Below, piece after piece: positions 654 through 44,511 of a DNA stretch of 64,000 nt. This stretch comes from a virus. A program made the position numbers and the translations under genes. The stretch's first letter is position 1. Each line of letters starts with the position of its first letter. Location of the stretch: positions 1-64,000 of IMG/VR virus record IMGVR_UViG_3300025120_010946. The stretch is one strand, 5' to 3'. A model generated the notes under the pieces. That model was not told the DNA's origin and ran no database searches. It worked only from the letters and a program-made list of their open reading frames with translations.

Positions 654-1019
654 ATGCCATACATCGTAGGTGCCTTAACAAAAACAAACTTAGATATGAC
701 GGGAGGTATCGTTCGCTCTGGAGTGACGACAACTGCCACTACAAATGAGACTGCGATTATATCTCTTTCTGCGCCAAAATATCAATCTGTTGAGTTTAAT
801 GTGCAAGCAACTCAATCAAGTAGTTTTAATTCTACTATCGTTAAGGCAATGCATGATGGTTCATCAGCATATGTAACGGAATATGGAACACTTCAAGTTC
901 CATCAGGAATTGCTACTTTCTCTGCTGACTTGAGTGGAGGACAACTAAGACTTTTGGCGTATCCTTCATCTGCCGGTTTAACAACCTTTAGTGTAATCTA
1001 CACTGCATTGAACGCATGA
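654..1019 (+). CDS. Hypothetical virion-associated protein
   Basis: 121-aa T/S/G-rich ORF with a TEYG..IATFSADL pattern like tail-associated domains. Confidence 0.55.
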   Translation: MPYIVGALTKTNLDMTGGIVRSGVTTTATTNETAIISLSAPKYQSVEFNVQATQSSSFNSTIVKAMHDGSSAYVTEYGTLQVPSGIATFSADLSGGQLRLLAYPSSAGLTTFSVIYTALNA

Positions 1020-1354
1020 AAACATTTAAGGAGTTTATTCGAGAAGCAGCACCTACAAACTCTACTGGGAGTGGTGTTGATAATTATATTCCATATCTGT
1101 TTAAGAATGAAGATGATGATGATTTAACTCAAGATTATCAAACACCTGCTGAACCAGGTGAGGCAAAATTTAGATTTTCAAACATATATCCAGTTTTAAA
1201 ACTTTCATTATCCAATAGTCAAGGTGATGGACCTAGTATTGATCAAATGGTTCATGCTTCAAAAGAATATACGCAATTAATGGATAATAATACAATTCAA
1301 AGAATACGTGATAATATAAAAAGATTTCAAACTGAAAGAATTCAAGACAATTAA
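1016..1354 (+). CDS. Putative internal head protein with T4-like capsid-targeting N-terminus and gp23 N-arm-like segment
   Basis: Starts MKTFKEFIRE, then AAPTNSTGSGVDNYIPYL, which matches gp23 ATPTNSTGSAVDNFDPVL. Confidence 0.6.
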   Translation: MKTFKEFIREAAPTNSTGSGVDNYIPYLFKNEDDDDLTQDYQTPAEPGEAKFRFSNIYPVLKLSLSNSQGDGPSIDQMVHASKEYTQLMDNNTIQRIRDNIKRFQTERIQDN

Positions 1355-1403: not shown

Positions 1404-1967
1404 ATGAAAACTTTAAAATATCTGGGAATAGGGTTAGGAGCGATAGTTGGTATTGCTCACATTGGTGTTCTAGGGCATTTAATATCGAGAAAAGATCACG
1501 TTCAACCACCTATCATTAATTTTCCTGCAGGTGATTACTCATCATATAAGGTAGAGGCAGGTAAAGAAGGTTACAGTATAGAATATAGAGCAAACGATCC
1601 TGCTATTCTTGAGTCACAAAAATCCTTATCATTAGATAAAACTAAGAGAGGATTATTTGGTGGTGGTAATGAAAGTCGTCGGGAGTGGCGCAAAGATCAA
1701 TACACTATGGATGGCACTAGGAATCTAGGAGGTGCTGTAGACGGCGAGGGAAAGTCTGCAAAAGACATAGAGTGTATCGTGGCGGACGCTGGAGCACGGA
1801 GTCAAGGTGCAATGGCGGGAAGTAGTATTGCTGCTGGAGTTGGTGTTCCTGCTGTGATTGGCATCCCATATGTTGGATGGTTAGCAGCTGGGTGGATGTC
1901 TTTGTTAGGACAGAATGTTGGATCTGAAGCAGGATCTATCGTCAACTCTGCAATTAGTGATTGCTAA
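1404..1967 (+). CDS. Hypothetical membrane-associated protein
   Basis: N-terminal hydrophobic helix and C-terminal Gly/Ala-rich hydrophobic segment. Confidence 0.65.
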   Translation: MKTLKYLGIGLGAIVGIAHIGVLGHLISRKDHVQPPIINFPAGDYSSYKVEAGKEGYSIEYRANDPAILESQKSLSLDKTKRGLFGGGNESRREWRKDQYTMDGTRNLGGAVDGEGKSAKDIECIVADAGARSQGAMAGSSIAAGVGVPAVIGIPYVGWLAAGWMSLLGQNVGSEAGSIVNSAISDC

Positions 1968-1992: not shown

Positions 1993-3387
1993 ATGAAAAA
2001 ATGTCCAGCTGGACAGTATTACTGTTTTACTAGTAAGAAATGTAAAAAAATTCCCATGGGATATCATGTGGGTGGAAGGGGTATGCTTGAACCAGATACC
2101 GATACCAATAAAAAAGGTAATGGTAATGGCAATGGCAATGGTAACGGTGGCAATGGTAATGGTGCCGGTAACGGTGGCAATGGTAATGGTGCCGGTAACG
2201 GTGGTGGCGGTAACGGTGGTGGTATGGGAGAACAAGTAGTCCATGAAGGTGGTAACCTTCGTCAGTGGTTCAAAGGATCCAAATCAAAAGATGGTAAAGG
2301 TGGTTGGGTAAATGTCCGTACTGGCGGAACATGTGCAAGTGATGAACCTGGAGAGGGAACTCCTAAGTGTGTTTCTTCTGCAAAAAGAGCAAGTATGACA
2401 AAAGCAGAAAGAGATTCTGCTGCTAGAAGAAAAACAAAAGCAGATCCTGGACAACAACAAAAAACGGGTGCTGCTAAACCAACTTATGTAAAAACTGATA
2501 GTCCTAGAAAGATGAAGAACGAAGAAATCGAACTCATTCAAGAAAAGGACAAAAAAGGTAAAGGTAGTGGATCAAAAGACGCCTGTTACCACAAAGTAAA
2601 ATCTCGTTACAGTGTTTGGCCTAGTGCATATGCGTCAGGAGCACTAGTCAAATGTCGTAAGGTAGGCGCTGCAAACTGGGGAAACAAGTCTGAAGAACTT
2701 TCCTGGGATGAACTAACAGAGAAGTGCTGGCCTGGATACGAGAAAAAAGGAATGAAGACAATGTTTGGAAAAAGATATCCAAACTGCGTTAAAAAGAAAG
2801 CAACCAGAAAAGAGCAGGTTGAAGAAGCAGTAAGACTCCCCGCTAAAACTGGTAATATTATTGATGTAAATTTTGTCTTTAGAGGAAGAGGCTTCAGTCT
2901 TAAAATGTTCTTCCCTAAAGTAGGAATTCCAAGTAGATCTGATGTAATGGATCAGATCGATAAAGTATATCCTGGCGCAAAACTAACGTATTTCAGAGTC
3001 GCTGACTATGAACCAGGACAACCACTCCTCAGAGTTTCAGAAGAAACAGAAGACAAAAGAGGAGAAACTATTGCAGATTATGCAAATGACGGAAAAATAT
3101 CAGAAGGACAAATTGTGGATTCCGAGGGGGCACTAGGAGAGGGTGCTGCTTGGACTAAAAAGTCTGGTAAGAATAAAGAGGGTGGACTTAACGAAAAAGG
3201 GCGTAAGTCTTATGAAAGAGAAAACCCAGGTTCTGATCTTAAAGCACCATCTAAAAAGAAAGGAAACAAAAGAAGAGCATCATTCTGTGCAAGAATGAAA
3301 GGTATGAAAGCAAAACTAACTTCTGCCAAAACTGCAAGAGATCCAGATAGCAGAATTAACAAAAGTTTGAGAGCTTGGAACTGCTGA
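1993..3387 (+). CDS. Modular basic protein, probable internal head (poly)protein
   Basis: 464 aa; Lys/Cys-rich modules separated by acidic (L/I/V)xE junctions; Gly-Asn linker. Confidence 0.65.
   Translation: MKKCPAGQYYCFTSKKCKKIPMGYHVGGRGMLEPDTDTNKKGNGNGNGNGNGGNGNGAGNGGNGNGAGNGGGGNGGGMGEQVVHEGGNLRQWFKGSKSKDGKGGWVNVRTGGTCASDEPGEGTPKCVSSAKRASMTKAERDSAARRKTKADPGQQQKTGAAKPTYVKTDSPRKMKNEEIELIQEKDKKGKGSGSKDACYHKVKSRYSVWPSAYASGALVKCRKVGAANWGNKSEELSWDELTEKCWPGYEKKGMKTMFGKRYPNCVKKKATRKEQVEEAVRLPAKTGNIIDVNFVFRGRGFSLKMFFPKVGIPSRSDVMDQIDKVYPGAKLTYFRVADYEPGQPLLRVSEETEDKRGETIADYANDGKISEGQIVDSEGALGEGAAWTKKSGKNKEGGLNEKGRKSYERENPGSDLKAPSKKKGNKRRASFCARMKGMKAKLTSAKTARDPDSRINKSLRAWNC
2116..2223 (+). repeat. Gly-Asn low-complexity coding repeat including a 27-nt tandem duplication
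   Basis: GGTAACGGTGGCAATGGTAATGGTGCC at 2140-2166 and 2167-2193, partial third copy to 2204. Confidence 0.9.
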
Positions 3388-8281: not shown

Positions 8282-9949
8282 ATGGCTAAGTTATTTGGGT
8301 TCTCGATTGAGGATACCGAAAAAACTCCACCTAACGTTGTTTCCCCCGTTCCTCCTAATAATGAGGACGGGGTAGATCACTATATGACAAGTGGATTTTT
8401 TGGGCAATATGTTGATATTGAAGGAGTCTACAAAACAGAGTTTGATTTAATCAAACGATATCGTGAAATGGCATTACATCCAGAGTGTGATAGTGCTATT
8501 GAAGATGTGGTAAATGAAGCAATTGTAGCAGACACTCATGATACTCCTGTAGAAATTGAACTTTCAAATCTTAATGCTAGTGACGGAATTAAGAAAAAAA
8601 TAAGAGAAGAGTTTAAATATATTTTAGGATTATTGGATTTTGACAAAAAAGCACATGAAATCTATAGGAATTGGTATATTGACGGAAGACTTTACTACCA
8701 CAAAGTCATTGATTTAAAAAATCCTCACGAAGGTATTCAAGAATTACGTTATATTGACGCAATGAAAATGCGTTATATACGTCAGCAGAAGAAAAAACCT
8801 AATGATAGTCGTTTAGGAAATATTAATAGTGGAAATAATAATCCCATGGAATATGAATTCCCTGAGATTGAAGAATATTTCCTTTACAATCCAAAATCTG
8901 GATATCCTTCTCAAACTGCTGGAGCTCAAGGAGGAAATTCTGGTGTTAAATTTTCTAAAGATTCAATCACATATTGTTCATCTGGACTTGTAGATCGTAA
9001 TAAAGGATCAACTCTTTCATATCTTCATAAAGCAATCAAATCACTCAATCAACTTCGCATGATTGAAGATGCGCTTGTAATCTATAGATTGTCTCGCGCA
9101 CCAGAACGTCGTGTTTTCTACATTGACGTTGGTAATCTGCCTAAAGTAAAAGCAGAACAATATTTACGCGATGTTATGAATCGCTATCGCAATAAACTTG
9201 TATATAATGCACAAACAGGTGAGATTCGCGATGACAAAAAATTTATGTCTATGATGGAAGACTTCTGGCTTCCTAGGCGTGAAGGTGGAAGAGGAACTGA
9301 AATCTCCACTCTCCCTGGTGGACAAAACCTTGGTGAGATTACTGACATTGAATATTTTAAAAAGAAACTTTATAAGTCACTTAACGTACCTATTTCCCGT
9401 ATTGAAGGAGATGGTGGATTTAACCTAGGAAGATCTTCTGAAATTTTAAGAGATGAGGTAAAATTCAGCAAATTTGTTGGACGTTTAAGAAAAAGATTCT
9501 CTGGCTTGTTTAATGACATGCTAAAGACTCAACTTTTACTTAAAAATATCATTACTCCTGAAGATTGGGACATAATGAATGAGCACATTCAATATGACTT
9601 TCTTTATGATAATCACTTTGCTGAACTTAAAGATGCAGAGTTAATGAATGAAAGACTCACTCTTGTCGCAACAGCAGAAGCTTATGTTGGTAAGTATTAT
9701 TCTCAAGATTATTTGAGGAGAAAAGTTCTTCGTCAAACTGATCAAGAAATTTTAGAACAAGATCAACTAATTAAATATGAAATTAAATCTGGAATAATTC
9801 CTGATCCTGCAGAAATGCAAATTGATCCTGAAACTGGACAATCAGTACCCGGAAATGCATCAATGGATTTAGGAAAACCAGTAATGGAACCGGAAGTTGA
9901 TGGTTCTTCTACTGAAGCTCCTGAACTACCCAAGGGTGGGGAAATATAA
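8282..9949 (+). CDS. gp20: Portal protein
   Basis: YRLSRAPERRVFYIDVGNLPK, EDFWLPRREGGRGTEI. Confidence 0.98.
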   Translation: MAKLFGFSIEDTEKTPPNVVSPVPPNNEDGVDHYMTSGFFGQYVDIEGVYKTEFDLIKRYREMALHPECDSAIEDVVNEAIVADTHDTPVEIELSNLNASDGIKKKIREEFKYILGLLDFDKKAHEIYRNWYIDGRLYYHKVIDLKNPHEGIQELRYIDAMKMRYIRQQKKKPNDSRLGNINSGNNNPMEYEFPEIEEYFLYNPKSGYPSQTAGAQGGNSGVKFSKDSITYCSSGLVDRNKGSTLSYLHKAIKSLNQLRMIEDALVIYRLSRAPERRVFYIDVGNLPKVKAEQYLRDVMNRYRNKLVYNAQTGEIRDDKKFMSMMEDFWLPRREGGRGTEISTLPGGQNLGEITDIEYFKKKLYKSLNVPISRIEGDGGFNLGRSSEILRDEVKFSKFVGRLRKRFSGLFNDMLKTQLLLKNIITPEDWDIMNEHIQYDFLYDNHFAELKDAELMNERLTLVATAEAYVGKYYSQDYLRRKVLRQTDQEILEQDQLIKYEIKSGIIPDPAEMQIDPETGQSVPGNASMDLGKPVMEPEVDGSSTEAPELPKGGEI

Positions 9950-10214: not shown

Positions 10215-10777
10215 TGGCACATCGCACAGTTGGTGTCGGACAAAGTATTGCTACAGGTAGCACTAATCAAAAAAGTGCTGCTATTGCAGTAAAATCAAAC
10301 GTTTTAAGAATTACCGCAAGAGGTGGTGATGCTCACGTTGCAATTGGTACTGAACCAGTAGCAGCTGAAACCGATTATCTTATTCCTGCTGGAACAAGTG
10401 AAACTCTGGGAATTACTAAAGCTTCTCAAAGAGTTAGAAGTGTTGAAACGTTAGGCACAAAAACAATTGTCACTTGTCCTGAGGGCACTCAACAACCATT
10501 TGGTGTTGGTGATTGCGTAAGTCTTGAGACAAATCTTGCAGATAGCAACTGGGCGACGATAATTAATCATGTTGGGGTAGATTCTATTGATCAAACAGCA
10601 GATTATGATGGATCTTTTAGTACTAGAGTTACCCTAAGTGCTAATACTGGCACCATTTCTACAGCGTTTTCTGATAATGACGCTACTCTTCGTAGATCGA
10701 TCAAAGTAGGTGCTGTTTCACCTGATAATGCTGGATCTATTTTCGTTCAACAAGTACAAATTACCGGAGTAGCCTGA
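10214..10777 (+). CDS. Hypothetical virion protein
   Basis: 187-aa ORF translationally coupled between the gp67-like gene and gp21. Confidence 0.65.
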   Translation: MAHRTVGVGQSIATGSTNQKSAAIAVKSNVLRITARGGDAHVAIGTEPVAAETDYLIPAGTSETLGITKASQRVRSVETLGTKTIVTCPEGTQQPFGVGDCVSLETNLADSNWATIINHVGVDSIDQTADYDGSFSTRVTLSANTGTISTAFSDNDATLRRSIKVGAVSPDNAGSIFVQQVQITGVA

Positions 10778-11427
10778 TGAAACTTATCAGAGAAGAAATC
10801 GAATCAGTCGAATTTCTTGTAGAATCAAAGAACGGCAAGAAATCAATGTATATTGAGGGGATTTTCCTTCAAGGAAACATTAAAAACCGTAATGGTAGAA
10901 TGTATCCTATGGAAACTCTTCGTAGAGAAGTTGGTAGATACAATGAAAATAATGTTCAAGCAGGTAGAGCACTTGGTGAACTTGGACATCCTGATGGACC
11001 TACTGTCAATCTAGATCGAGTATCTCATAAAATTGTTTCTCTAAGAGAATCTGGTTCTAACTTTATCGGTAAAGCAAAAATTCTTAGCACTCCTATGGGT
11101 AAAATTGCATCTTCTCTTATAGGAGAAGGTGTAAAGCTTGGTGTTTCTTCTCGTGGAATTGGATCTTTAAAAATGACAAGAGAAGGTGTTAACATAGTCG
11201 GTGACGATTTTATGTTGGCAACTGCTGCTGATATCGTTGCTGATCCTTCTGCACCTGATGCTTTCGTTGAAGGCATTATGGAAGGTAAGGATTGGGTATG
11301 GGATGGTGGTATTCTTCGTGAGAGGTATGCCGATAAAACATATAGAGAAATTAACACTCTAGTCACCCAAAAACAACTCGATGAAAAGAAATTAGATCTT
11401 TTCAACGATTTTCTTAATAATATCTGA
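10777..11427 (+). CDS. gp21: Prohead protease
   Basis: MKLIRE start, NRNGRMY, ALGELGHP, GVSSRGIGS, DIVADPSAPDA. Confidence 0.97.
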   Translation: MKLIREEIESVEFLVESKNGKKSMYIEGIFLQGNIKNRNGRMYPMETLRREVGRYNENNVQAGRALGELGHPDGPTVNLDRVSHKIVSLRESGSNFIGKAKILSTPMGKIASSLIGEGVKLGVSSRGIGSLKMTREGVNIVGDDFMLATAADIVADPSAPDAFVEGIMEGKDWVWDGGILRERYADKTYREINTLVTQKQLDEKKLDLFNDFLNNI

Positions 11428-11498: not shown

Positions 11499-12587
11499 AT
11501 GTCTCGTGGTACAAAATTACAAGAAATGGAAGTAGGCAATGTAAAGCAGTCCAAAACTGCTGCTAACGCTAACGCTAAGCCTGGCGATTCTATGCCCACT
11601 CTGTCCGGAGCAACTCCTGGACAGTCTGGTACATATGAAGATCTCGGAGGTCCTACCCCTGAGAACTATAAGCCTGATGATGATTCTGCCAAGTTAAACA
11701 TACCTGGCAAAACCCTCAAGCAAGTTAAGGACGTAGTAAACGCAAAAGCCAAACCTGCCATGGCAGCTCCTGCCGAGGAAGTAGAAACTGACGAACCCAT
11801 TATCGAAGAAGAATCAGTAACTGATGAAGTAGTATCTGAAGAAGAAACTACCGAAACTGTTGCTGAGTATAACGTCGAAGAAGATGTTAATGCTCTTCTC
11901 AGTGGTGAAGAACTCACCGAAGAATTCAAAGAAAAGGCAAAAACCATCTTTGAAGCAGCAATCACTGCTAAGGCTGCTTCCATTGAGGAAGCAATCGAAG
12001 CTAAGTACGCTGCTGCACTTGCTGAAGAAGTTGCCTTAGCAAAAGAATCACTCGCTGAGCGTGTAGATTCTTATCTTGAGTATGTCTCTGACGAGTGGTT
12101 TGAAGAAAACGCACTTGCCATTGAGAACGGACTCAAGACTGAAATGACTGAATCATTCCTTGAAGGAATGAAGGGTCTTTTTGAAGAACATTATGTATCA
12201 ATTCCTGAAGAAAAATATGATGTGCTTAACAGCATGGTAGAAAAACTTGATGATATGGAGACAAAACTCAACGAGCAAATCGAGAAAAATATTGCCCTGA
12301 ATGGCAGACTCAGTGAGTCTGTTGCAGACGGTATTCTTGATGAAGTTTCTGAAGGACTCGCGTCTACTCAGAAGGAGAAGCTCGCCTCACTTTCCCAAAG
12401 TGTAGAGTTTGAAAGTGAACAATCTTATCGTGAAAAGCTAGGAACACTTAAGGAATCTTATTTCCCTAAGAACAATGCTCCTGCTGCTAAAACTGAAACA
12501 CTGTCTGAAGGTGAAACCCATGATCATCAGCAATATACTGATACCATGAGTTCATATCTCAGATCTCTGGGAACTTTTAGCAAATGA
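11499..12587 (+). CDS. gp22: Prohead scaffold protein
   Basis: Acidic coiled coil; FKEKAKTIFEAA, VDSYLEYV; located between gp21 and gp23. Confidence 0.95.
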   Translation: MSRGTKLQEMEVGNVKQSKTAANANAKPGDSMPTLSGATPGQSGTYEDLGGPTPENYKPDDDSAKLNIPGKTLKQVKDVVNAKAKPAMAAPAEEVETDEPIIEEESVTDEVVSEEETTETVAEYNVEEDVNALLSGEELTEEFKEKAKTIFEAAITAKAASIEEAIEAKYAAALAEEVALAKESLAERVDSYLEYVSDEWFEENALAIENGLKTEMTESFLEGMKGLFEEHYVSIPEEKYDVLNSMVEKLDDMETKLNEQIEKNIALNGRLSESVADGILDEVSEGLASTQKEKLASLSQSVEFESEQSYREKLGTLKESYFPKNNAPAAKTETLSEGETHDHQQYTDTMSSYLRSLGTFSK

Positions 12588-12632: not shown

Positions 12633-14033
12633 ATGTTCCATTCCGAGCATCTGCAGGAAAAGTGGGCACCCCTTCTTGAGTATGATGGACTTGACTCCAT
12701 CAAGGATCCTCATAGAAAGGCTGTAACTGCCGTCCTGCTTGAAAACCAAGAAAAATTTCTGAAGGAGTCTTCCTCCTTTGAGACTGGTGGATCCCTCCTA
12801 AGTGAGGCTACTCCTACCAACTCAACAGGTAGCGCCGTAGATAACTTCGATCCCGTTCTGATCTCTTTGATCAGACGCTCAATGCCTAACCTGATCGCAT
12901 ATGATCTGGCTGGCGTCCAACCAATGAGTGGACCTACTGGACTCATCTTCGCGATGCGTTCCCGTTATGCCAATCAAACCGGAAACGAAGGATTCTACAA
13001 CGAACCCGATTCCGCATGGAGTGGACAGAACTTCGGTCGTAACCTTACTGGTGGTTTCTCTGATACCGCCGCTGGTATGGGTACTACCGCTCAGGCTGGC
13101 AACAACCCTGCACTCCTGAACCCCACCTCCTCCGCTAACACTAGTGGTGGTGGAACCGACGCTTATAACGTTGGACAAGGCATGACAACTGCCGAGTCTG
13201 AAGCACTCGGAGATGCAGATCAGAACGCCTTCAATCAGATGGCTTTCTCTATTGAGAAAGTTACTGTAACTGCTAAGTCCAGAGCACTGAAAGCAGAATA
13301 CAGCCTTGAGCTTGCTCAAGACTTGAAAGCGATCCATGGACTGAACGCTGAAGCGGAACTCGCCAACATTCTCTCTACTGAGATTCTGGCTGAGATCAAC
13401 CGCGAAGTGATCAGAACCATCTACAAGGTTGCTGAGCAAGGTGCTGTACAAAACGTCGCACAATCCGGTGTATTCGATCTAGACATCGATTCCAACGGAC
13501 GCTGGAGCGTTGAGAAGTTCAAAGGACTTCTGTTCCAAATCGAAAGAGATGCTAACGCGATTGCACAAAGAACTCGTAGAGGAAAGGGCAACACGATCCT
13601 TTGTTCTGCTGACGTTGCTTCTGCACTCACCATGGCTGGTGTACTTGATTACACCCCTGCTCTTAACGCCAACCTCACCGTTGACGACACCGGTAACACC
13701 TTCGCTGGTGTTCTCCAAGGTAAGTATCGTGTATATATCGATCCTTATTCTGCTAACCTTACCTCAGGTAATCAGAGCCCAGGTAACCAGTACTACGTCG
13801 TAGGATACAAGGGATCTTCCCCTTATGACGCTGGACTGTTCTATTGCCCATATGTTCCCCTTCAAATGGTTCGTGCCGTTGGAGAGGACACCTTCCAGCC
13901 TAAAATCGGATTCAAGACTCGTTACGGCATGGTTGCGAATCCCTTCGCTGAAGGCACCCAGGCACAACTCGGCGCTCTTAACATCAACGCCAACCGTTAC
14001 TACAGACGTGTTGCAGTTAAGAACCTCATGTGA
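12633..14033 (+). CDS. gp23: Major capsid protein
   Basis: FDPVLISLIRRSMPNLIAYDLAGVQPM, KSRALKAEY, YDAGLFYCPYVPL. Confidence 0.99.
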   Translation: MFHSEHLQEKWAPLLEYDGLDSIKDPHRKAVTAVLLENQEKFLKESSSFETGGSLLSEATPTNSTGSAVDNFDPVLISLIRRSMPNLIAYDLAGVQPMSGPTGLIFAMRSRYANQTGNEGFYNEPDSAWSGQNFGRNLTGGFSDTAAGMGTTAQAGNNPALLNPTSSANTSGGGTDAYNVGQGMTTAESEALGDADQNAFNQMAFSIEKVTVTAKSRALKAEYSLELAQDLKAIHGLNAEAELANILSTEILAEINREVIRTIYKVAEQGAVQNVAQSGVFDLDIDSNGRWSVEKFKGLLFQIERDANAIAQRTRRGKGNTILCSADVASALTMAGVLDYTPALNANLTVDDTGNTFAGVLQGKYRVYIDPYSANLTSGNQSPGNQYYVVGYKGSSPYDAGLFYCPYVPLQMVRAVGEDTFQPKIGFKTRYGMVANPFAEGTQAQLGALNINANRYYRRVAVKNLM

Positions 14034-38229: not shown

Positions 38230-39519
38230 ATGAAAAGTTTCTTCCAGTTCCTTAGTGAAGCGGAATCACAAGCTGCAACACAGGCGAGAAAACTTGGACT
38301 AAAGGGCGACGGACATGGCGGTTGGTTAAATCGTTCTGGGGAGTTTGTTGCTAAAACAGAAGATGGTAAATTAAAATTCTTTAATAAAAATCAGAAACCA
38401 GGTAAAGATCCAGATCAAACTCCAAATACAAAGAAAGTAACTCCGGTTCTCAAGACAAAAACAATGTCTGTGAACAAAGAACCACAAAGTAAAAAGAAAG
38501 GTGGTGAAGAGGAGACTGGTGGTGAAAAAAAGGCAAATAGTGATACCCTCACTCTTGCTTTTGGTAGATTTAATCCTCCTACCGTAGGGCATGAAAAATT
38601 ATTTCAGATGGCTAAGAGAACATCTGAGGGTGGAGATTTAAAAATTTACCCATCTAGGACACAAGACGCGAAGAAAAATCCTCTTGATGCTGACATGAAA
38701 GTTTCTTATATGAAAAAAATGTTCCCTGACTTTGAAGAGAACATTATTAATGATGACGAGATGCGATCTATTTTTAATGTACTTCAAACTGCTGATGGTG
38801 AATATAAAAATGTAAATATCATTGTTGGATCTGATCGTCAATCAGAGTTTGAAAGTCTTGCTACAAAGTATAATGGTGAGTTGTATAATTTTGATAACAT
38901 CCGTGTTGTTTCTGCTGGAGCAAGAGACTCTGACGCTGATGGTGTGGAGGGAATGTCTGCATCAAAGATGAGAAAAGCAGTAATTGATGATGACTATGAA
39001 GAATTTAAAAAAGGAGTTCCTAAGTCAGTTGCTGATGCTGATACACAATCACTATATGATGCAGTTCGTTCAGGAATGAAAATTAAGAAACAAAAAGTCA
39101 CTGCTGAAATGTGGGAGATTGCTCCTAAGTATGATCAAAGGGGATTAAGAGAACAATATGTAAATGGATTTATTTACAAAATGGGTGACATTGTTGAAAA
39201 TCTTAATACCGGATTGATTGGTAAGATTATTCGTAGAGGGACAAATCATCTTATTTGTGTGACTGAGCAAGAATATATGTTTAAATCTTGGATTCGTGAT
39301 GTAATGGAATACACTGAGAAGTCTATGAATAGAAGAATGAGATTGCCTGGAAAACCCAACACCCTTATTGGAACTGGTGGATATTACAAAACTGCTGTTG
39401 CAGCAACTCCAGGATCTCAAGAGGGAGCAAAAAATGTTGCTCCTGGTGGGAAAGTATATAACGGATATTCTAATTCTCTTAAGTTCATAAATAAGTACAA
39501 AGCTAAAAGTAGTAGATAG
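38230..39519 (+). CDS. Cytidylyltransferase-like (HIGH-superfamily) nucleotidyltransferase
   Basis: FGRFNPPTVGHEKL, IVGSDR, GMSASKMR. Confidence 0.85.
   Translation: MKSFFQFLSEAESQAATQARKLGLKGDGHGGWLNRSGEFVAKTEDGKLKFFNKNQKPGKDPDQTPNTKKVTPVLKTKTMSVNKEPQSKKKGGEEETGGEKKANSDTLTLAFGRFNPPTVGHEKLFQMAKRTSEGGDLKIYPSRTQDAKKNPLDADMKVSYMKKMFPDFEENIINDDEMRSIFNVLQTADGEYKNVNIIVGSDRQSEFESLATKYNGELYNFDNIRVVSAGARDSDADGVEGMSASKMRKAVIDDDYEEFKKGVPKSVADADTQSLYDAVRSGMKIKKQKVTAEMWEIAPKYDQRGLREQYVNGFIYKMGDIVENLNTGLIGKIIRRGTNHLICVTEQEYMFKSWIRDVMEYTEKSMNRRMRLPGKPNTLIGTGGYYKTAVAATPGSQEGAKNVAPGGKVYNGYSNSLKFINKYKAKSSR
39487..39493 (+). promoter_or_regulatory. Late promoter
   Basis: ATAAATA about 30 nt before the ATG at 39522. 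Confidence 0.55.
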
Positions 39520-42566: not shown

Positions 42567-42953
42567 ATGTTATTTAATGAGTTGAATTCGGAGAATTTTC
42601 TCCTCTTTGCAATTAAAAATTATGAAAATCCTCAGGCTGTAACAAGAGAAGATTTTGATAAAGATTTGAATCACTTTAAATATATTAAACGGTTGCTTAA
42701 ACGATATAAGTCAACTGGTGAATTAAAGACACATCTTCTCTTAAATCATTTTATTGTTCTTTACAATATTTTTGGTGAAGCAACAACTCCTATGTTATTT
42801 TATAAAATTGATGAGCAGGAACTTTGGGGTTGTCTTAAAACATTTGTATTGTTTTTAGATAAATTACCAGATTATCCACAAACCTATATTCATGATTTGA
42901 ATATAGATGAAAATTGTATGGAAAAACTTATTTTCTTTCACAATGAACAGTAA
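42567..42953 (+). CDS. Conserved hypothetical protein of T4-like phages
   Basis: FLLFAIKNYENP...FKYIKRLL...LLNHFIVLYNIFG. Confidence 0.75.
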   Translation: MLFNELNSENFLLFAIKNYENPQAVTREDFDKDLNHFKYIKRLLKRYKSTGELKTHLLLNHFIVLYNIFGEATTPMLFYKIDEQELWGCLKTFVLFLDKLPDYPQTYIHDLNIDENCMEKLIFFHNEQ

Positions 42954-43155
42954 ATCAGTAGATAAATTTTTATATCTTTTTAGAGAGATGATGGGTGCTG
43001 GTGCCTCTGGAGGTGCTCCTACTAATAATGTTGGTGATGGTAAGATCGCTGGTACTGCAGAGGCAGGCGATGATCCTCCTGTAAATTTGAAAAAGAAAAA
43101 AAGAAAACCTACTCCTGTAGGAAGATACGGTACACGTAGAACGTGGCGTAGATAA
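42943..43155 (+). CDS. Small protein with APTN motif and basic tail
   Basis: LFRE-MMGAG...APTNNVGDGKIAG...DDPPV-KKKKRK; ATG 42943. Confidence 0.65.
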   Translation: MNSKSVDKFLYLFREMMGAGASGGAPTNNVGDGKIAGTAEAGDDPPVNLKKKKRKPTPVGRYGTRRTWRR

Positions 43156-43556
43156 TGGAAGAAGAAGTAAAGGTTGCTGTCTTAGAAACGAGGTTGGAAA
43201 ACTTTGAAACTCTAGTTTCAAGGTTAGACTCTGCAATTGAAAAAATTGCTGAGGTAAATAATAATGTGTCTAGGATGTTAGCCGTCCATGAACAAAGAAT
43301 TTCTAAGCAAGAAGAAATCGACGAAGTATTGTTTGATAAAATCGACAAACTCCGTGATAAAATGGACAGCGATCATGACATCGTTACTCAACGATTATCA
43401 TTACTGGAACGGAAACTTTGGATTGGCATCGGAGCACTGGGAGCAATTCTAGTTCTAACAAATCCACAAGCAATCAAAACTCTTAAACCCTTGTTATCCT
43501 CCACCAATAGTGCTATAGTGGCACCAGCAGTTACTTTTGTGAATGGATCATATTGA
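43155..43556 (+). CDS. Coiled-coil protein with C-terminal transmembrane helix
   Basis: Heptad pattern followed by LWIGIGALGAILVL. Confidence 0.7.
   Translation: MEEEVKVAVLETRLENFETLVSRLDSAIEKIAEVNNNVSRMLAVHEQRISKQEEIDEVLFDKIDKLRDKMDSDHDIVTQRLSLLERKLWIGIGALGAILVLTNPQAIKTLKPLLSSTNSAIVAPAVTFVNGSY
43491..43519 (+). promoter_or_regulatory. sigma70-type promoter for primase/nrd genes
   Basis: TTGTTA-17 nt-TATAGT with TGn. Confidence 0.5.
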
Positions 43557-44511
43557 TTCTAAGTATGTTGGATTTATATCCGCACGCTTAGAAAAATTCA
43601 AAAGAGTAAAACCAAATCTTTACAACTTTCGTTGCCCTGTTTGTGGTGACTCAAAGAAGCATAAGAATAAAGCACGGGGTTATATTTACTCAGTAAAGGT
43701 TAACACTAACTTTAAGTGCCATAATTGTGGTGCTTCAATGTCTTTTAACAACTTTCTGAAACATGTTGATCCTGTTATTCATAAACAATATTCATTAGAG
43801 AAGTTTAAAGAAGGACATACTGGCAAAAACTTTGTTGTTGACGAACCAGTATTTAAATTTGAAACACCTAAATTCAAGAAGAAGATAAATTTACCAAAGG
43901 CATCGGAGAATCCCAGTGCAGACGGATATCTTACTGCTAGAAAACTCAACTCAAATGATTTTTACTATGCAGAAAACTTTAAGAAATTTGTAAATACACT
44001 TAAACAAACTTTTAATAGTGTAAAGCATGATGAAGAGAGGATAATAATTCCACTTTATTATGAAAAGAACTTAATTGGATTGCAGGGGAGATCTCTAGGA
44101 TTAAGCACGGTTAAATATATCACGGTAATGATTAATGATGACGCACCAAAAATCTACGGACTCGATAACATCAGAAAGGATGCTCCAGTCTATATCACAG
44201 AAGGACCTTTTGACAGCACGTTCATTCGCAACTCGATTGCTATGTGCGGAGCTGATGCTGATGTTGATCGTTGGGGGATTAGCAACTGTGTTTGGATTTA
44301 TGATAATGAACCAAGGAACAATGAAATCGTCAGGCGGATTGGACGCACAATCGATAATGGCGACTCCGTAGTTATCTTTCCATCATACATTCAAGAAAAA
44401 GATATAAATGATATGGTGATCGCTGGACATGATGTTCAAAAGATCGTAGAATGTAACACCTATAGTGGTTTAGAAGCTAAACTTAAATTCAACACTTGGA
44501 AGAAAATATGA
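43543..44511 (+). CDS. gp61: DNA primase
   Basis: CPVCGDS...CHNC Zn finger, TEGPFDS, YDNEPRN, KDINDM. Confidence 0.96.
   Translation: MDHIDSKYVGFISARLEKFKRVKPNLYNFRCPVCGDSKKHKNKARGYIYSVKVNTNFKCHNCGASMSFNNFLKHVDPVIHKQYSLEKFKEGHTGKNFVVDEPVFKFETPKFKKKINLPKASENPSADGYLTARKLNSNDFYYAENFKKFVNTLKQTFNSVKHDEERIIIPLYYEKNLIGLQGRSLGLSTVKYITVMINDDAPKIYGLDNIRKDAPVYITEGPFDSTFIRNSIAMCGADADVDRWGISNCVWIYDNEPRNNEIVRRIGRTIDNGDSVVIFPSYIQEKDINDMVIAGHDVQKIVECNTYSGLEAKLKFNTWKKI

What the first reader, a model, noticed from the sequence alone, without database searches (positions are those of the whole stretch)
1043..1099. Small protein copies the predicted mature N-terminal arm of the major capsid protein
Seen: ORF 1016 residues EAAPTNSTGSGVDNYIPYL align ungapped with gp23 EATPTNSTGSAVDNFDPVL (12804-12860), 14/19 identical, while many synonymous codons differ. 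In both proteins the segment begins at a gp21-type (I/L)xE site. Inference: after maturation this protein exposes a surrogate gp23 N-arm that could fill vacant N-arm sites in the shell (for example around the portal vertex) or tether cargo to the inner capsid wall. Protein-level conservation argues for selection rather than a recent duplication.
Basis: partly seen in the sequence, partly recalled or inferred. Interest (0 to 1): 0.8.

Follow-up and report, generated by a model that had tools for sequence, protein, structure and literature searches.

The report
Packaged phage protein copying capsid arm
A small accessory gene of a marine T4-like cyanophage encodes a probable head-packaged protein whose N-terminus, once the head protease has trimmed it, copies the trimmed N-terminus of the phage's own major capsid protein, and the copy has followed the capsid protein's changes from phage to phage, which points to an undescribed way of building extra proteins into phage heads.

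Summary
P0001 (1016-1354) residues 10-28 match gp23 residues 58-76 at 14/19 (shuffles reach at most 9/19; BLASTP E 6e-7; HHalign E 6e-7). In both proteins the match starts at an (I/L)xE site. The gp23 site aligns with T4's known Glu65|Ala66 maturation cut. P0001 begins MKTFKEFIRE, 7/10 identical to the T4 capsid targeting sequence.

In 10 phages the small protein's arm matches its own gp23 arm in sequence and length, including lineage-specific insertions (permutation p 1.7e-4; length r 0.91). Two pairings are mismatched. Codons at identical residues are no more alike than chance (47/150), so selection keeps the match, not gene conversion.

The gene is an accessory one, and the protein is acidic and predicted mostly disordered. 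The same cassette (leader, cut site, gp23-arm copy) sits on other cargos, which I verified here for T-even gene 61.1 and cyanophage phrog_3286. This scan has noted such mimics before on other DNA (T4 gene 61.1 and others).

Best reading: a modular head-incorporation and retention tag. Nothing in the searchable literature describes this.

The parts
1016..1354 (+). P0001, 112-aa accessory head-protein candidate (start overlaps the stop of the upstream gene, ATGA)
   Evidence: ORF and translation. It has 127 word-index homologues and 94 clusters at 50% identity in 1.8 billion representatives, all with the same design. No Pfam or PHROG family matches.
1016..1045 (+). Leader M1-E10 (MKTFKEFIRE): T4 CTS-like propeptide ending in the gp21 motif I-x-E
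   Evidence: 7/10 identical to the T4 CTS MKTYQEFIAE (PMC8442874). It has an aromatic residue at positions 4 and 7 (targeting) and I8/E10 (processing), as defined genetically in T4 (PMC9026906). AF2 predicts a helix at residues 4-10.
1046..1102 (+). gp23-arm copy A11-F29 (the finding; predicted new N-terminus after cleavage)
   Evidence: 14/19 identical to gp23 58-76. It co-varies with the cognate gp23 arm in 10 phages.
1103..1129 (+). Acidic linker K30-T38 (NEDDDD)
   Evidence: Translation. An acidic patch is conserved in the family.
1130..1270 (+). Conserved core Q39-Y85 (QDYQTP...YPV.KL...DGPSID.MV.ASKEY). It is not related to gp23 and is predicted to be coil when the protein is modelled alone.
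   Evidence: Invariant columns in A2. HHalign of the core against the gp23 body gives E 0.34. AF2 pLDDT is about 55-70.
1271..1351 (+). Variable C-terminal helix region. Longer relatives carry basic extensions here.
   Evidence: AF2 predicts a helix at 75-110. The family's C-terminal remainders have a median pI of 10.3.
12633..14033 (+). gp23 major capsid protein (P0002)
   Evidence: Pfam Gp23 E 3.8e-152 and phrog_138.
12633..12806 (+). gp23 propeptide M1-E58, ending LLSE
   Evidence: Aligns with the T-even propeptide ending FLTE|A. T4 is cut after residue 65 (PMC9546572).
12807..12860 (+). gp23 mature N-terminal arm A59-L76, the template of the copy
   Evidence: In the wider population the arm has conserved anchors and a hypervariable middle.
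10777..11427 (+). gp21 prohead protease, the presumed processing enzyme
   Evidence: Pfam Peptidase_S77 E 1.7e-34 and phrog_207.
11499..12587 (+). gp22 scaffolding core protein
   Evidence: Pfam T4_CASP E 2e-78 and phrog_237.
42943..43155 (+). Second arm-mimic gene of this phage. It is a phrog_3286 protein in the gene 61.1-equivalent slot upstream of the primase: leader ...LFRE, an APTN... arm of the long gp23 type, then a basic tail.
   Evidence: phrog_3286 E 3e-16. Its arm matches a long-arm cyanophage gp23 from residue 59 at 11/18, E 3e-4. The same module is the C-terminal part of the S-SKS1-type P0001 homologues. The primase lies at 43543-44511.

Best explanation
P0001 is an accessory protein of the prohead core of a T4-like cyanomyovirus. 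Its 10-residue leader, which resembles the T4 capsid targeting sequence, takes it into the scaffolding core. The head protease gp21 then cuts after I-R-E, just as it cuts gp23 after L-S-E. The new N-terminus is a copy of the cognate gp23 arm. I read 'leader + cut site + gp23-arm copy' as a modular tag for head incorporation and retention. By looking like the segment of gp23 that lies inside the prohead next to the core and the protease, the tag lets a cargo dock, be processed in step with gp23, and stay associated with the gp23 lattice. It therefore has to follow changes in the phage's own gp23 arm. The cargo in P0001 is an acidic, mostly disordered 11.6-kDa polypeptide with a strongly conserved linear core whose function is unknown. 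What is shown: the similarity, its position at the cut sites, the co-variation, the absence of DNA homogenisation, and the modularity. What is inferred: packaging, cleavage, and what the arm binds.
For: The leader is 7/10 identical to the T4 CTS, with the genetically defined key positions F4, F7, I8 and E10. gp21, gp22 and gp23 are all present. The gp23 cut site is supported by alignment to T-even FLTE|A. Homology spans the cut site and the arm only, 24 columns at E 6e-7. Every family member keeps leader-E-xPT[N/M]-variable-GPVAG[F/Y]D[K/P]xLF, with two different leader types. The arm matches the cognate gp23: diagonal sum 649 against 415 +/- 58 in permutations, p 1.7e-4; variable middle alone p 1.9e-4; length r 0.91; S-SM2 21/27 and G038 24/30 identical, with shared insertions. 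Only 47/150 identical residues share a codon (0.31; independent-draw expectation 0.31-0.44), whereas orthologues share 0.5-0.77. Modularity: the T-even gene 61.1 profile also hits its own gp23 at residues 60-102 (E 2e-11), and gp61.1 against gp23 is 14/31 in register with the cut. Cyanophage phrog_3286 carries a gp23-type arm before a basic tail and is fused to P0001-type proteins in S-SKS1-like phages. In T4, gp23 66-105 lies inside the unexpanded head, and length-determination mutations A66D, A94V and G97S implicate it in core contact (PMC9546572). The gene is accessory, like the T4 internal proteins (PMC9026906).
Against: There is no virion proteomics and no cleavage data for any family member. 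In T4 the 10-residue CTS alone is enough for packaging, so an added arm is not obviously needed (PMC9026906). Mature P0001 is acidic (pI 4.5), unlike the basic T4 internal proteins. Two of 10 pairings have mismatched arm middles: G019, and AG-345-O18 (the same pairing recurs in AG-341-P01), so exact matching is not obligatory. The window's own phrog_3286 arm is of the long type and does not track the short gp23 arm. At gene level, none of gp20, gp21 or gp22 co-varies with the arm once gp23 body distance is removed. The permutation test is not corrected for phylogeny, and metagenomic contigs can be chimeric.
Confidence: 0.5

Rival explanations
1. Surrogate lattice arm. After cleavage and expansion the P0001 arm occupies gp23 N-fist/N-arm sites that are vacant in the shell, for example next to the portal or at vertices. 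This would complete the lattice or rivet the rest of the protein to the wall.
For: The hypervariable arm middle is kept matched at the protein level for longer than synonymous sites take to saturate, as expected if it must fit the same lattice site. In T4 the 25-residue N-fist is ordered and contacts four subunits (PMC9958956). Exploratory windows in gp23 91-210 co-vary with the arm. P1 DarA/Hdf shows that protease-processed internal proteins can sit at defined penton-hexon sites on the inner wall. No gp24-type second capsid gene is found in this contig or in the complete genomes of S-SM2, S-SKS1 and G023.
Against: In T4 the arm ends up on the outside of the shell, whereas a core-loaded protein is inside (PMC9546572, PMC9958956). 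The gene is absent from most sequenced cyanomyoviruses, including close relatives at this locus, so it cannot be a general lattice requirement. Mismatched pairings exist. The same arm type sits on unrelated cargos. The co-variation windows are confounded by linkage.
Confidence: 0.2
2. Substrate mimicry only. The resemblance exists so that gp21 recognises and cuts P0001 with the same kinetics as gp23, and the arm has no role after cleavage.
For: The homologous block spans the cut site. Three proteins of this phage share leader-E-x(A)PTN, which suggests a prime-side preference. T-even gp61.1 aligns with gp23 in register with the cut.
Against: Co-variation extends 8-25 residues downstream of the scissile bond, into a hypervariable middle and including its length. 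gp21 does not co-vary with the arm. The T4 gp21 determinants are reported to be few and on the P side (PMC9026906).
Confidence: 0.12
3. Decoy. The arm copy titrates a factor that recognises the gp23 N-terminal region, either a host defence sensor of capsid protein or a phage or host modifying enzyme.
For: The gp23 arm middle is hypervariable in the population, as expected under diversifying pressure. The mimic follows it. From my own knowledge, E. coli Lit is triggered by the Gol peptide in the N-terminal part of T4 gp23.
Against: The leader and cut site point to the head interior, not the cytoplasm. No candidate sensor or enzyme was identified. Nothing here tests this idea.
Confidence: 0.08
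4. Neutral relic. A fragment of gene 23 was duplicated or repeatedly gene-converted into this gene and has no function.
For: Short patches can be moved by recombination in phages. The arm is low-complexity sequence.
Against: Codon sharing at identical residues is at chance level in all 10 pairs (47/150; binomial p 4e-9 against the orthologue level of 0.55), even where the genes lie about 500 bp apart in G038. The module is conserved in all 94 family clusters. Changes are parallel in the window and G005, with different codons.
Confidence: 0.05

Closest known systems
T4 internal proteins IPI, IPII, IPIII (and Alt) with the capsid targeting sequence
   Same: A 10-residue N-terminal leader of the same pattern (7/10 identical) ending in (L/I)xE for gp21. 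Small, non-essential and sporadically distributed late proteins of a T4-type head module.
   Different: No sequence similarity beyond the leader. Mature P0001 is acidic (pI 4.5), not basic. It carries a copy of the capsid protein's arm right after the cut, which the literature read here does not describe for T4 internal proteins. Packaging is not shown.
T4-family gene 61.1 product (phrog_1823) and cyanophage phrog_3286, uncharacterised small ORFs next to the primase gene
   Same: The cassette has the same order: leader, (L/I/F)xE, copy of the phage's gp23 N-terminal arm. I verified this here for Mosigvirus AV118 and for window 42943-43155. S-SKS1-type P0001 homologues sit in this slot and contain phrog_3286 as their C-terminal part.
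   Different: In gp61.1 and phrog_3286 the arm is followed directly by a short basic tail. P0001 instead has an acidic linker and a conserved 47-residue core, has a T4-IP-type leader, and has moved to the gp16-gp17 region. P0001 does not match either profile (E > 1).
Phage P1 DarA/Hdf
   Same: Internal head proteins trimmed at the N-terminus by the prohead protease and held at defined sites on the inner capsid wall. This is a precedent for a processed, wall-anchored cargo (PMC12810830).
   Different: No sequence relationship (no Pfam or PHROG hit for P0001). The P1 proteins are large and folded, and they bind through their own domains rather than through a copy of the capsid protein's arm.
gp24 vertex protein of T4 (a gp23 paralogue)
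   Same: A second protein that shares gp23 sequence and is cut by gp21.
   Different: gp24 is a full HK97-fold paralogue. P0001 shares only 24 columns with gp23 and has no capsid fold. No gp24-type gene was found in these cyanophages.

Membership tests
CTS-bearing T4-type internal head proteins | N-terminal ~10-residue capsid targeting sequence resembling MKTYQEFIAE, with targeting residues at positions 4 and 7 | tested here: met
   MKTFKEFIRE is 7/10 identical and has F4 and F7. There is also a weak, non-significant hit of residues 1-13 to phrog_2667 'internal head protein' (E 0.15).
CTS-bearing T4-type internal head proteins | gp21 cleavage motif (L/I)-x-E at the end of the leader | tested here: met
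   I8-R9-E10. All family members end their leader in [LIVM]xE.
CTS-bearing T4-type internal head proteins | Cognate gp21 protease and gp22 scaffolding core encoded by the phage | tested here: met
   PF03420 at 10777-11427 and PF25623 at 11499-12587.
CTS-bearing T4-type internal head proteins | Small basic, DNA-associated mature protein | tested here: not met
   Mature P0001 has pI 4.5 and charge -6. The family's common part has a median pI of 4.1, and only the C-terminal extensions of longer members are basic.
CTS-bearing T4-type internal head proteins | Physically present in proheads and virions, processed by gp21, ejected with the DNA | not testable with these tools
   No proteomic data were found for any family member.
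gp61.1-type capsid-arm mimics (phrog_1823 / phrog_3286) | Leader + cut site + segment similar to the phage's own gp23 from the cut site onward | tested here: met
   P0001 against own gp23: 15/28, E 6e-7, in register with the cut. The reference case was checked: phrog_1823 hits AV118 gp23 residues 60-102 at E 2e-11.
gp61.1-type capsid-arm mimics (phrog_1823 / phrog_3286) | Sequence membership in the family profile | tested here: not met
   P0001 gives no hit to phrog_1823 or phrog_3286 at E <= 1. S-SKS1-type relatives hit phrog_3286 only through their C-terminal part.
gp61.1-type capsid-arm mimics (phrog_1823 / phrog_3286) | Position immediately upstream of the primase gene 61 | tested here: not met
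   P0001 lies in the gp16-gp17 region, as does its S-SM2 homologue. Relatives in S-SKS1, AG-345-L05 and G023 are in the primase slot, and G038 has the gene two genes downstream of gp23.
Gp23/gp24 major capsid protein family (PF07068) | HK97-type capsid body homologous to gp23 | tested here: not met
   No Pfam hit. HHalign of the core against the gp23 body gives E 0.34. The AF2 model has no folded domain.

The most novel reading that the evidence does not exclude
T4-like phages have a general, unrecognised addressing system in which a free-standing copy of the major capsid protein's freshly cut N-terminal arm serves as a lattice-specific anchor. After gp21 trimming, the arm of the accessory protein takes part in the same arm-mediated contacts as gp23 arms, inside the prohead and possibly threaded into N-fist sites at expansion. 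Each phage's cargo is therefore keyed to its own capsid and must co-evolve with it. P0001 is the first example with a conserved non-basic cargo domain.
Probability: 0.25. Interest if true: 0.85.

Novelty: new variant of a known kind. Interest (0 to 1): 0.66.

Why it matters
How T4-type heads choose and hold their internal cargo is only partly understood. The 10-residue CTS is known, but its receptor is not. A second determinant that copies the capsid protein's own arm, and is kept matched to it by selection, would give a concrete and testable handle on several questions: what the pre-expansion gp23 arm binds, how accessory proteins are kept in or on the shell, and why the arm is hypervariable in ocean cyanophages. 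It would also give an uncharacterised T4 gene (61.1) and its relatives a candidate function, and could refine CTS-based protein packaging in T4 nanoparticle engineering. S-SM2 and S-SKS1 are cultured, so the key experiments are feasible.

Tried and rejected
- Deeper homology of P0001 to gp23 beyond the arm (QDYQTP...FRFSN against GVQPM...IFAMR) is rejected: HHalign of core against body gives E 0.34.
- Recent gene conversion is rejected by the codon analysis.
- Complex prediction with two copies of mature gp23 plus mature P0001 returned 'no answer' (score 0.00, controls not run). This is no evidence either way. The N-fist site in T4 is built from four subunits, which a two-copy job cannot reproduce.
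- AF2 of P0001 with a 35-row alignment gave pLDDT 60 and no fold worth searching, so no fold search was run.
- Pfam and PHROGs give no family for P0001. The ESM Atlas returned only unnamed viral clusters at scores below 0.9.
- gp20-centred IMG/VR loci (80) gave no contig with both genes.
- tblastn of the gp23 arm against 50,697 phage records found only gp23 genes, with one place per record at that sensitivity.
- Partial Mantel scans for a third-party partner found no gene-level signal in gp18-gp22 or downstream ORFs. Only the adjacent gp23 propeptide correlated, as expected from linkage. The 30-residue windows at the permutation floor (gp22 151-180, gp20 361-405, gp23 91-210) are exploratory only.
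- RNA runs: one 238-nt contig at about 95% identity lies inside P0001 in one oligo-dT marine library, and most cover falls on the neighbouring gene. This is not evidence of transcription.
- Literature searches for a capsid-arm mimic, for a cyanophage CTS and for gp61.1 found nothing relevant.
- No late-promoter motif lies directly upstream. The gene appears translationally coupled within a + strand operon.

Full report
**Setting.** The window is part of a 78-kb contig of a marine T4-like cyanomyovirus. The head module is complete: portal 8282-9949, gp21 protease 10777-11427 (PF03420), gp22 scaffold 11499-12587 (PF25623) and gp23 12633-14033 (PF07068). P0001 (1016-1354, 112 aa) lies upstream in the gp16-gp17 region. 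Its ATG overlaps the stop of the preceding gene. It matches no Pfam or PHROG family.

**Observation.**
- P0001 E10-L28 and gp23 E58-L76 are 14/19 identical without gaps, at exactly the reported coordinates.
- Shuffled P0001 never exceeds 9/19 in 3000 trials.
- BLASTP gives 15/28, E 6e-7.
- In the phage's own contig this arm is the only other tblastn hit of gp23.
- Ten of the 14 identical residues use different codons.
- Profile-profile comparison limits the homology to 24 columns that span the cut site and the arm (E 6e-7). The remaining core is unrelated to gp23.

**Cut sites.**
- The gp23 LLSE|A aligns with T-even FLTE|AEIGG, which is the experimentally known cut after residue 65 (PMC9546572).
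- P0001 begins MKTFKEFIRE. The T4 capsid targeting sequence is MKTYQEFIAE (PMC8442874).
- T4 genetics place targeting at positions 4 and 7 and processing at positions 8 and 10 (PMC9026906). P0001 has F4, F7, I8 and E10.
- Cleavage and packaging of P0001 are therefore well-founded inferences, not observations.

**Family.**
- Homologues are rare among isolates: S-SM2, S-SKS1 and three single-cell virus records out of 50,697 phage records.
- They are common in marine metagenomes: 209 IMG/VR loci, 127 word-index hits and 94 clusters at 50% identity.
- All members share one design: leader ending [LIVM]xE, then xPT[N/M], a variable Gly/Ser/Thr/Ala/Asn-rich middle, GPVAG[F/Y]D[K/P]xLF, an acidic patch, and a strongly conserved QDYQTP...DGPSID.MV.ASKEY core.
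- There are two leader types: the T4-IP-like 10-mer and a 15-17-residue amphipathic leader.
- The gene sits in three different places: the gp16-gp17 region, upstream of the primase, and two genes downstream of gp23.
- It is missing at this locus from several close relatives, including phage Bellamy, so it is an accessory gene.
- Alone, P0001 is predicted to be mostly disordered (pLDDT 60; helices 4-10 and 75-110). The mature form is acidic, pI 4.5.

**Co-variation.** I assembled 10 phages with both genes.
- The gp23 arm has conserved anchors and a hypervariable middle of about 8-24 residues in the population.
- The small protein's arm matches its own gp23 arm better than other phages' arms. 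The diagonal sum is 649 against 415 +/- 58, p 1.7e-4. The variable middle alone gives p 1.9e-4. Lengths correlate at r 0.91.
- Strong matches: S-SM2 21/27 with a shared insertion, G038 24/30, AG-345-L05 with a shared long insertion, and the window with its near relative G005, where both paralogues changed in parallel (STGS.V to SV..GGV).
- Exceptions: G019 pairs a long arm with a short one. AG-345-O18 has matched length but a different middle, and the same pairing recurs in a second single cell, AG-341-P01.
- The test is not phylogeny-corrected.

**Selection, not conversion.** At residues identical between the two arms, only 47 of 150 share a codon (0.31). The expectation for independent draws from each gene's codon usage is 0.31-0.44. 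Orthologues between these phages share 0.5-0.77 (binomial p 4e-9 against 0.55). This holds even where the two genes are about 500 bp apart (G038). The matching therefore persists at the protein level without DNA homogenisation.

**A wider cassette.** Earlier notes of this scan pointed to T4 gene 61.1 as a capsid-arm mimic. I tested that lead here.
- In Mosigvirus AV118 the gp61.1 profile (phrog_1823) hits gene 61.1 (E 1e-25) and also gp23 residues about 60-102 (E 2e-11).
- AV118 gp61.1 against its own gp23 is 14/31, E 6e-6, in register with the cut, and is followed by a basic tail.
- In the window, the ORF at 42943-43155, upstream of the primase, is phrog_3286 (E 3e-16). It has a leader, an APTN... 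arm like the long gp23 arms (11/18 from residue 59 of a long-arm gp23, E 3e-4) and a basic tail.
- That arm does not track the window's short gp23 arm.
- S-SKS1-type P0001 homologues sit in this slot and carry phrog_3286 as their C-terminal part. P0001 is thus linked by fusion or fission to the gp61.1-like cassette.
- The arm copy therefore occurs on at least three different cargos. That favours a generic tag function over a role specific to P0001.

**Mechanism.**
- In T4, gp23 66-105 lies inside the unexpanded head, is disordered after cleavage, and is implicated in core contact by the length mutations A66D, A94V and G97S. On expansion it moves outside and forms the N-arm and a 25-residue N-fist that contacts four subunits (PMC9546572, PMC9958956).
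- My best reading (confidence 0.5) is an extended head-incorporation and retention tag that mimics this segment.
The outside location of the mature arm, the accessory distribution and the mismatched pairs weigh against it.
- Substrate mimicry alone (0.12) does not explain co-variation far from the scissile bond.
- A decoy role (0.08) is untested.
- A neutral relic (0.05) is contradicted by the codon data.
- A search for a co-varying third partner among gp18-gp22 found nothing at gene level and only confounded local hints.
- The complex prediction gave no verdict.

**Novelty.** CTS-led internal proteins are known. A capsid-arm copy that co-evolves with the capsid protein is not described in the literature I could search. 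This scan has met the same kind of mimic before on other DNA.

Noticed in passing
window 38230-39519 (+): A 429-aa ORF starts MKSFFQFLSE|A, a second T4-CTS-like leader with an (L)xE site.
   Followed up: no
window 42943-43155 (+): A phrog_3286 protein in the gene 61.1-equivalent slot upstream of the primase. It has a leader ending LFRE, an arm like the long-type cyanophage gp23 arms, and a very basic tail (pI 10.5). Its arm does not follow the window's short gp23 arm.
   Followed up: partly
window 1993-3387 (+); L007, L061, L016: A basic 464-aa protein (pI 9.8) with a Cys-rich N-terminus, a long GNGNG repeat and a DUF6321 C-terminus. In relatives its N-terminal part lies directly after, or is fused to, the P0001-type gene (AG-345-O18, G019; the G005 small protein is 239 aa).
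   Followed up: no
gp23 arm, window 12807-12860, and P0129-P0247, L196-L275: The first 18-33 residues of mature gp23 are hypervariable in sequence and length across marine cyanomyoviruses whose gp23 bodies are 80-90% identical. They are flanked by invariant anchors (xPT[N/M] ... GP[T/V]AGFDPVL).
   Followed up: partly
one search hits H105-H113, H124: The short arm type (PTNSTG..[IV].NFDPVL) is shared with the gp23 of Methylophilales phage Melnitz, Pelagibacter phages Mosig and HTVC008M, and Stenotrophomonas and Rhizobium T4-like phages, so it is ancient outside the T-even group.
   Followed up: no
L277 1486-1980 (-), Mosigvirus AV118: In this T-even phage the gene 61.1 reading frame is open for 164 codons upstream of the primase gene, possibly because 61.1 and 61.2 are read through or are called from a TTG start. 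Only the last 54 or so codons match phrog_1823.
   Followed up: no
window 1404-1967 (+): P0004 (phrog_605) is a 187-aa protein with an N-terminal transmembrane-like segment and a Gly/Ala-rich C-terminus. It is far more widespread in cyanophages than P0001 (126 phage records at the DNA level) and is the part of this region best covered in RNA-library contigs.
   Followed up: no
S-SM2, S-SKS1, G023 complete genomes; window contig: Only one gp23-family gene was found per genome, with no gp24-type vertex paralogue. The pentons are presumably made of gp23 itself or of an unrelated protein.
   Followed up: partly
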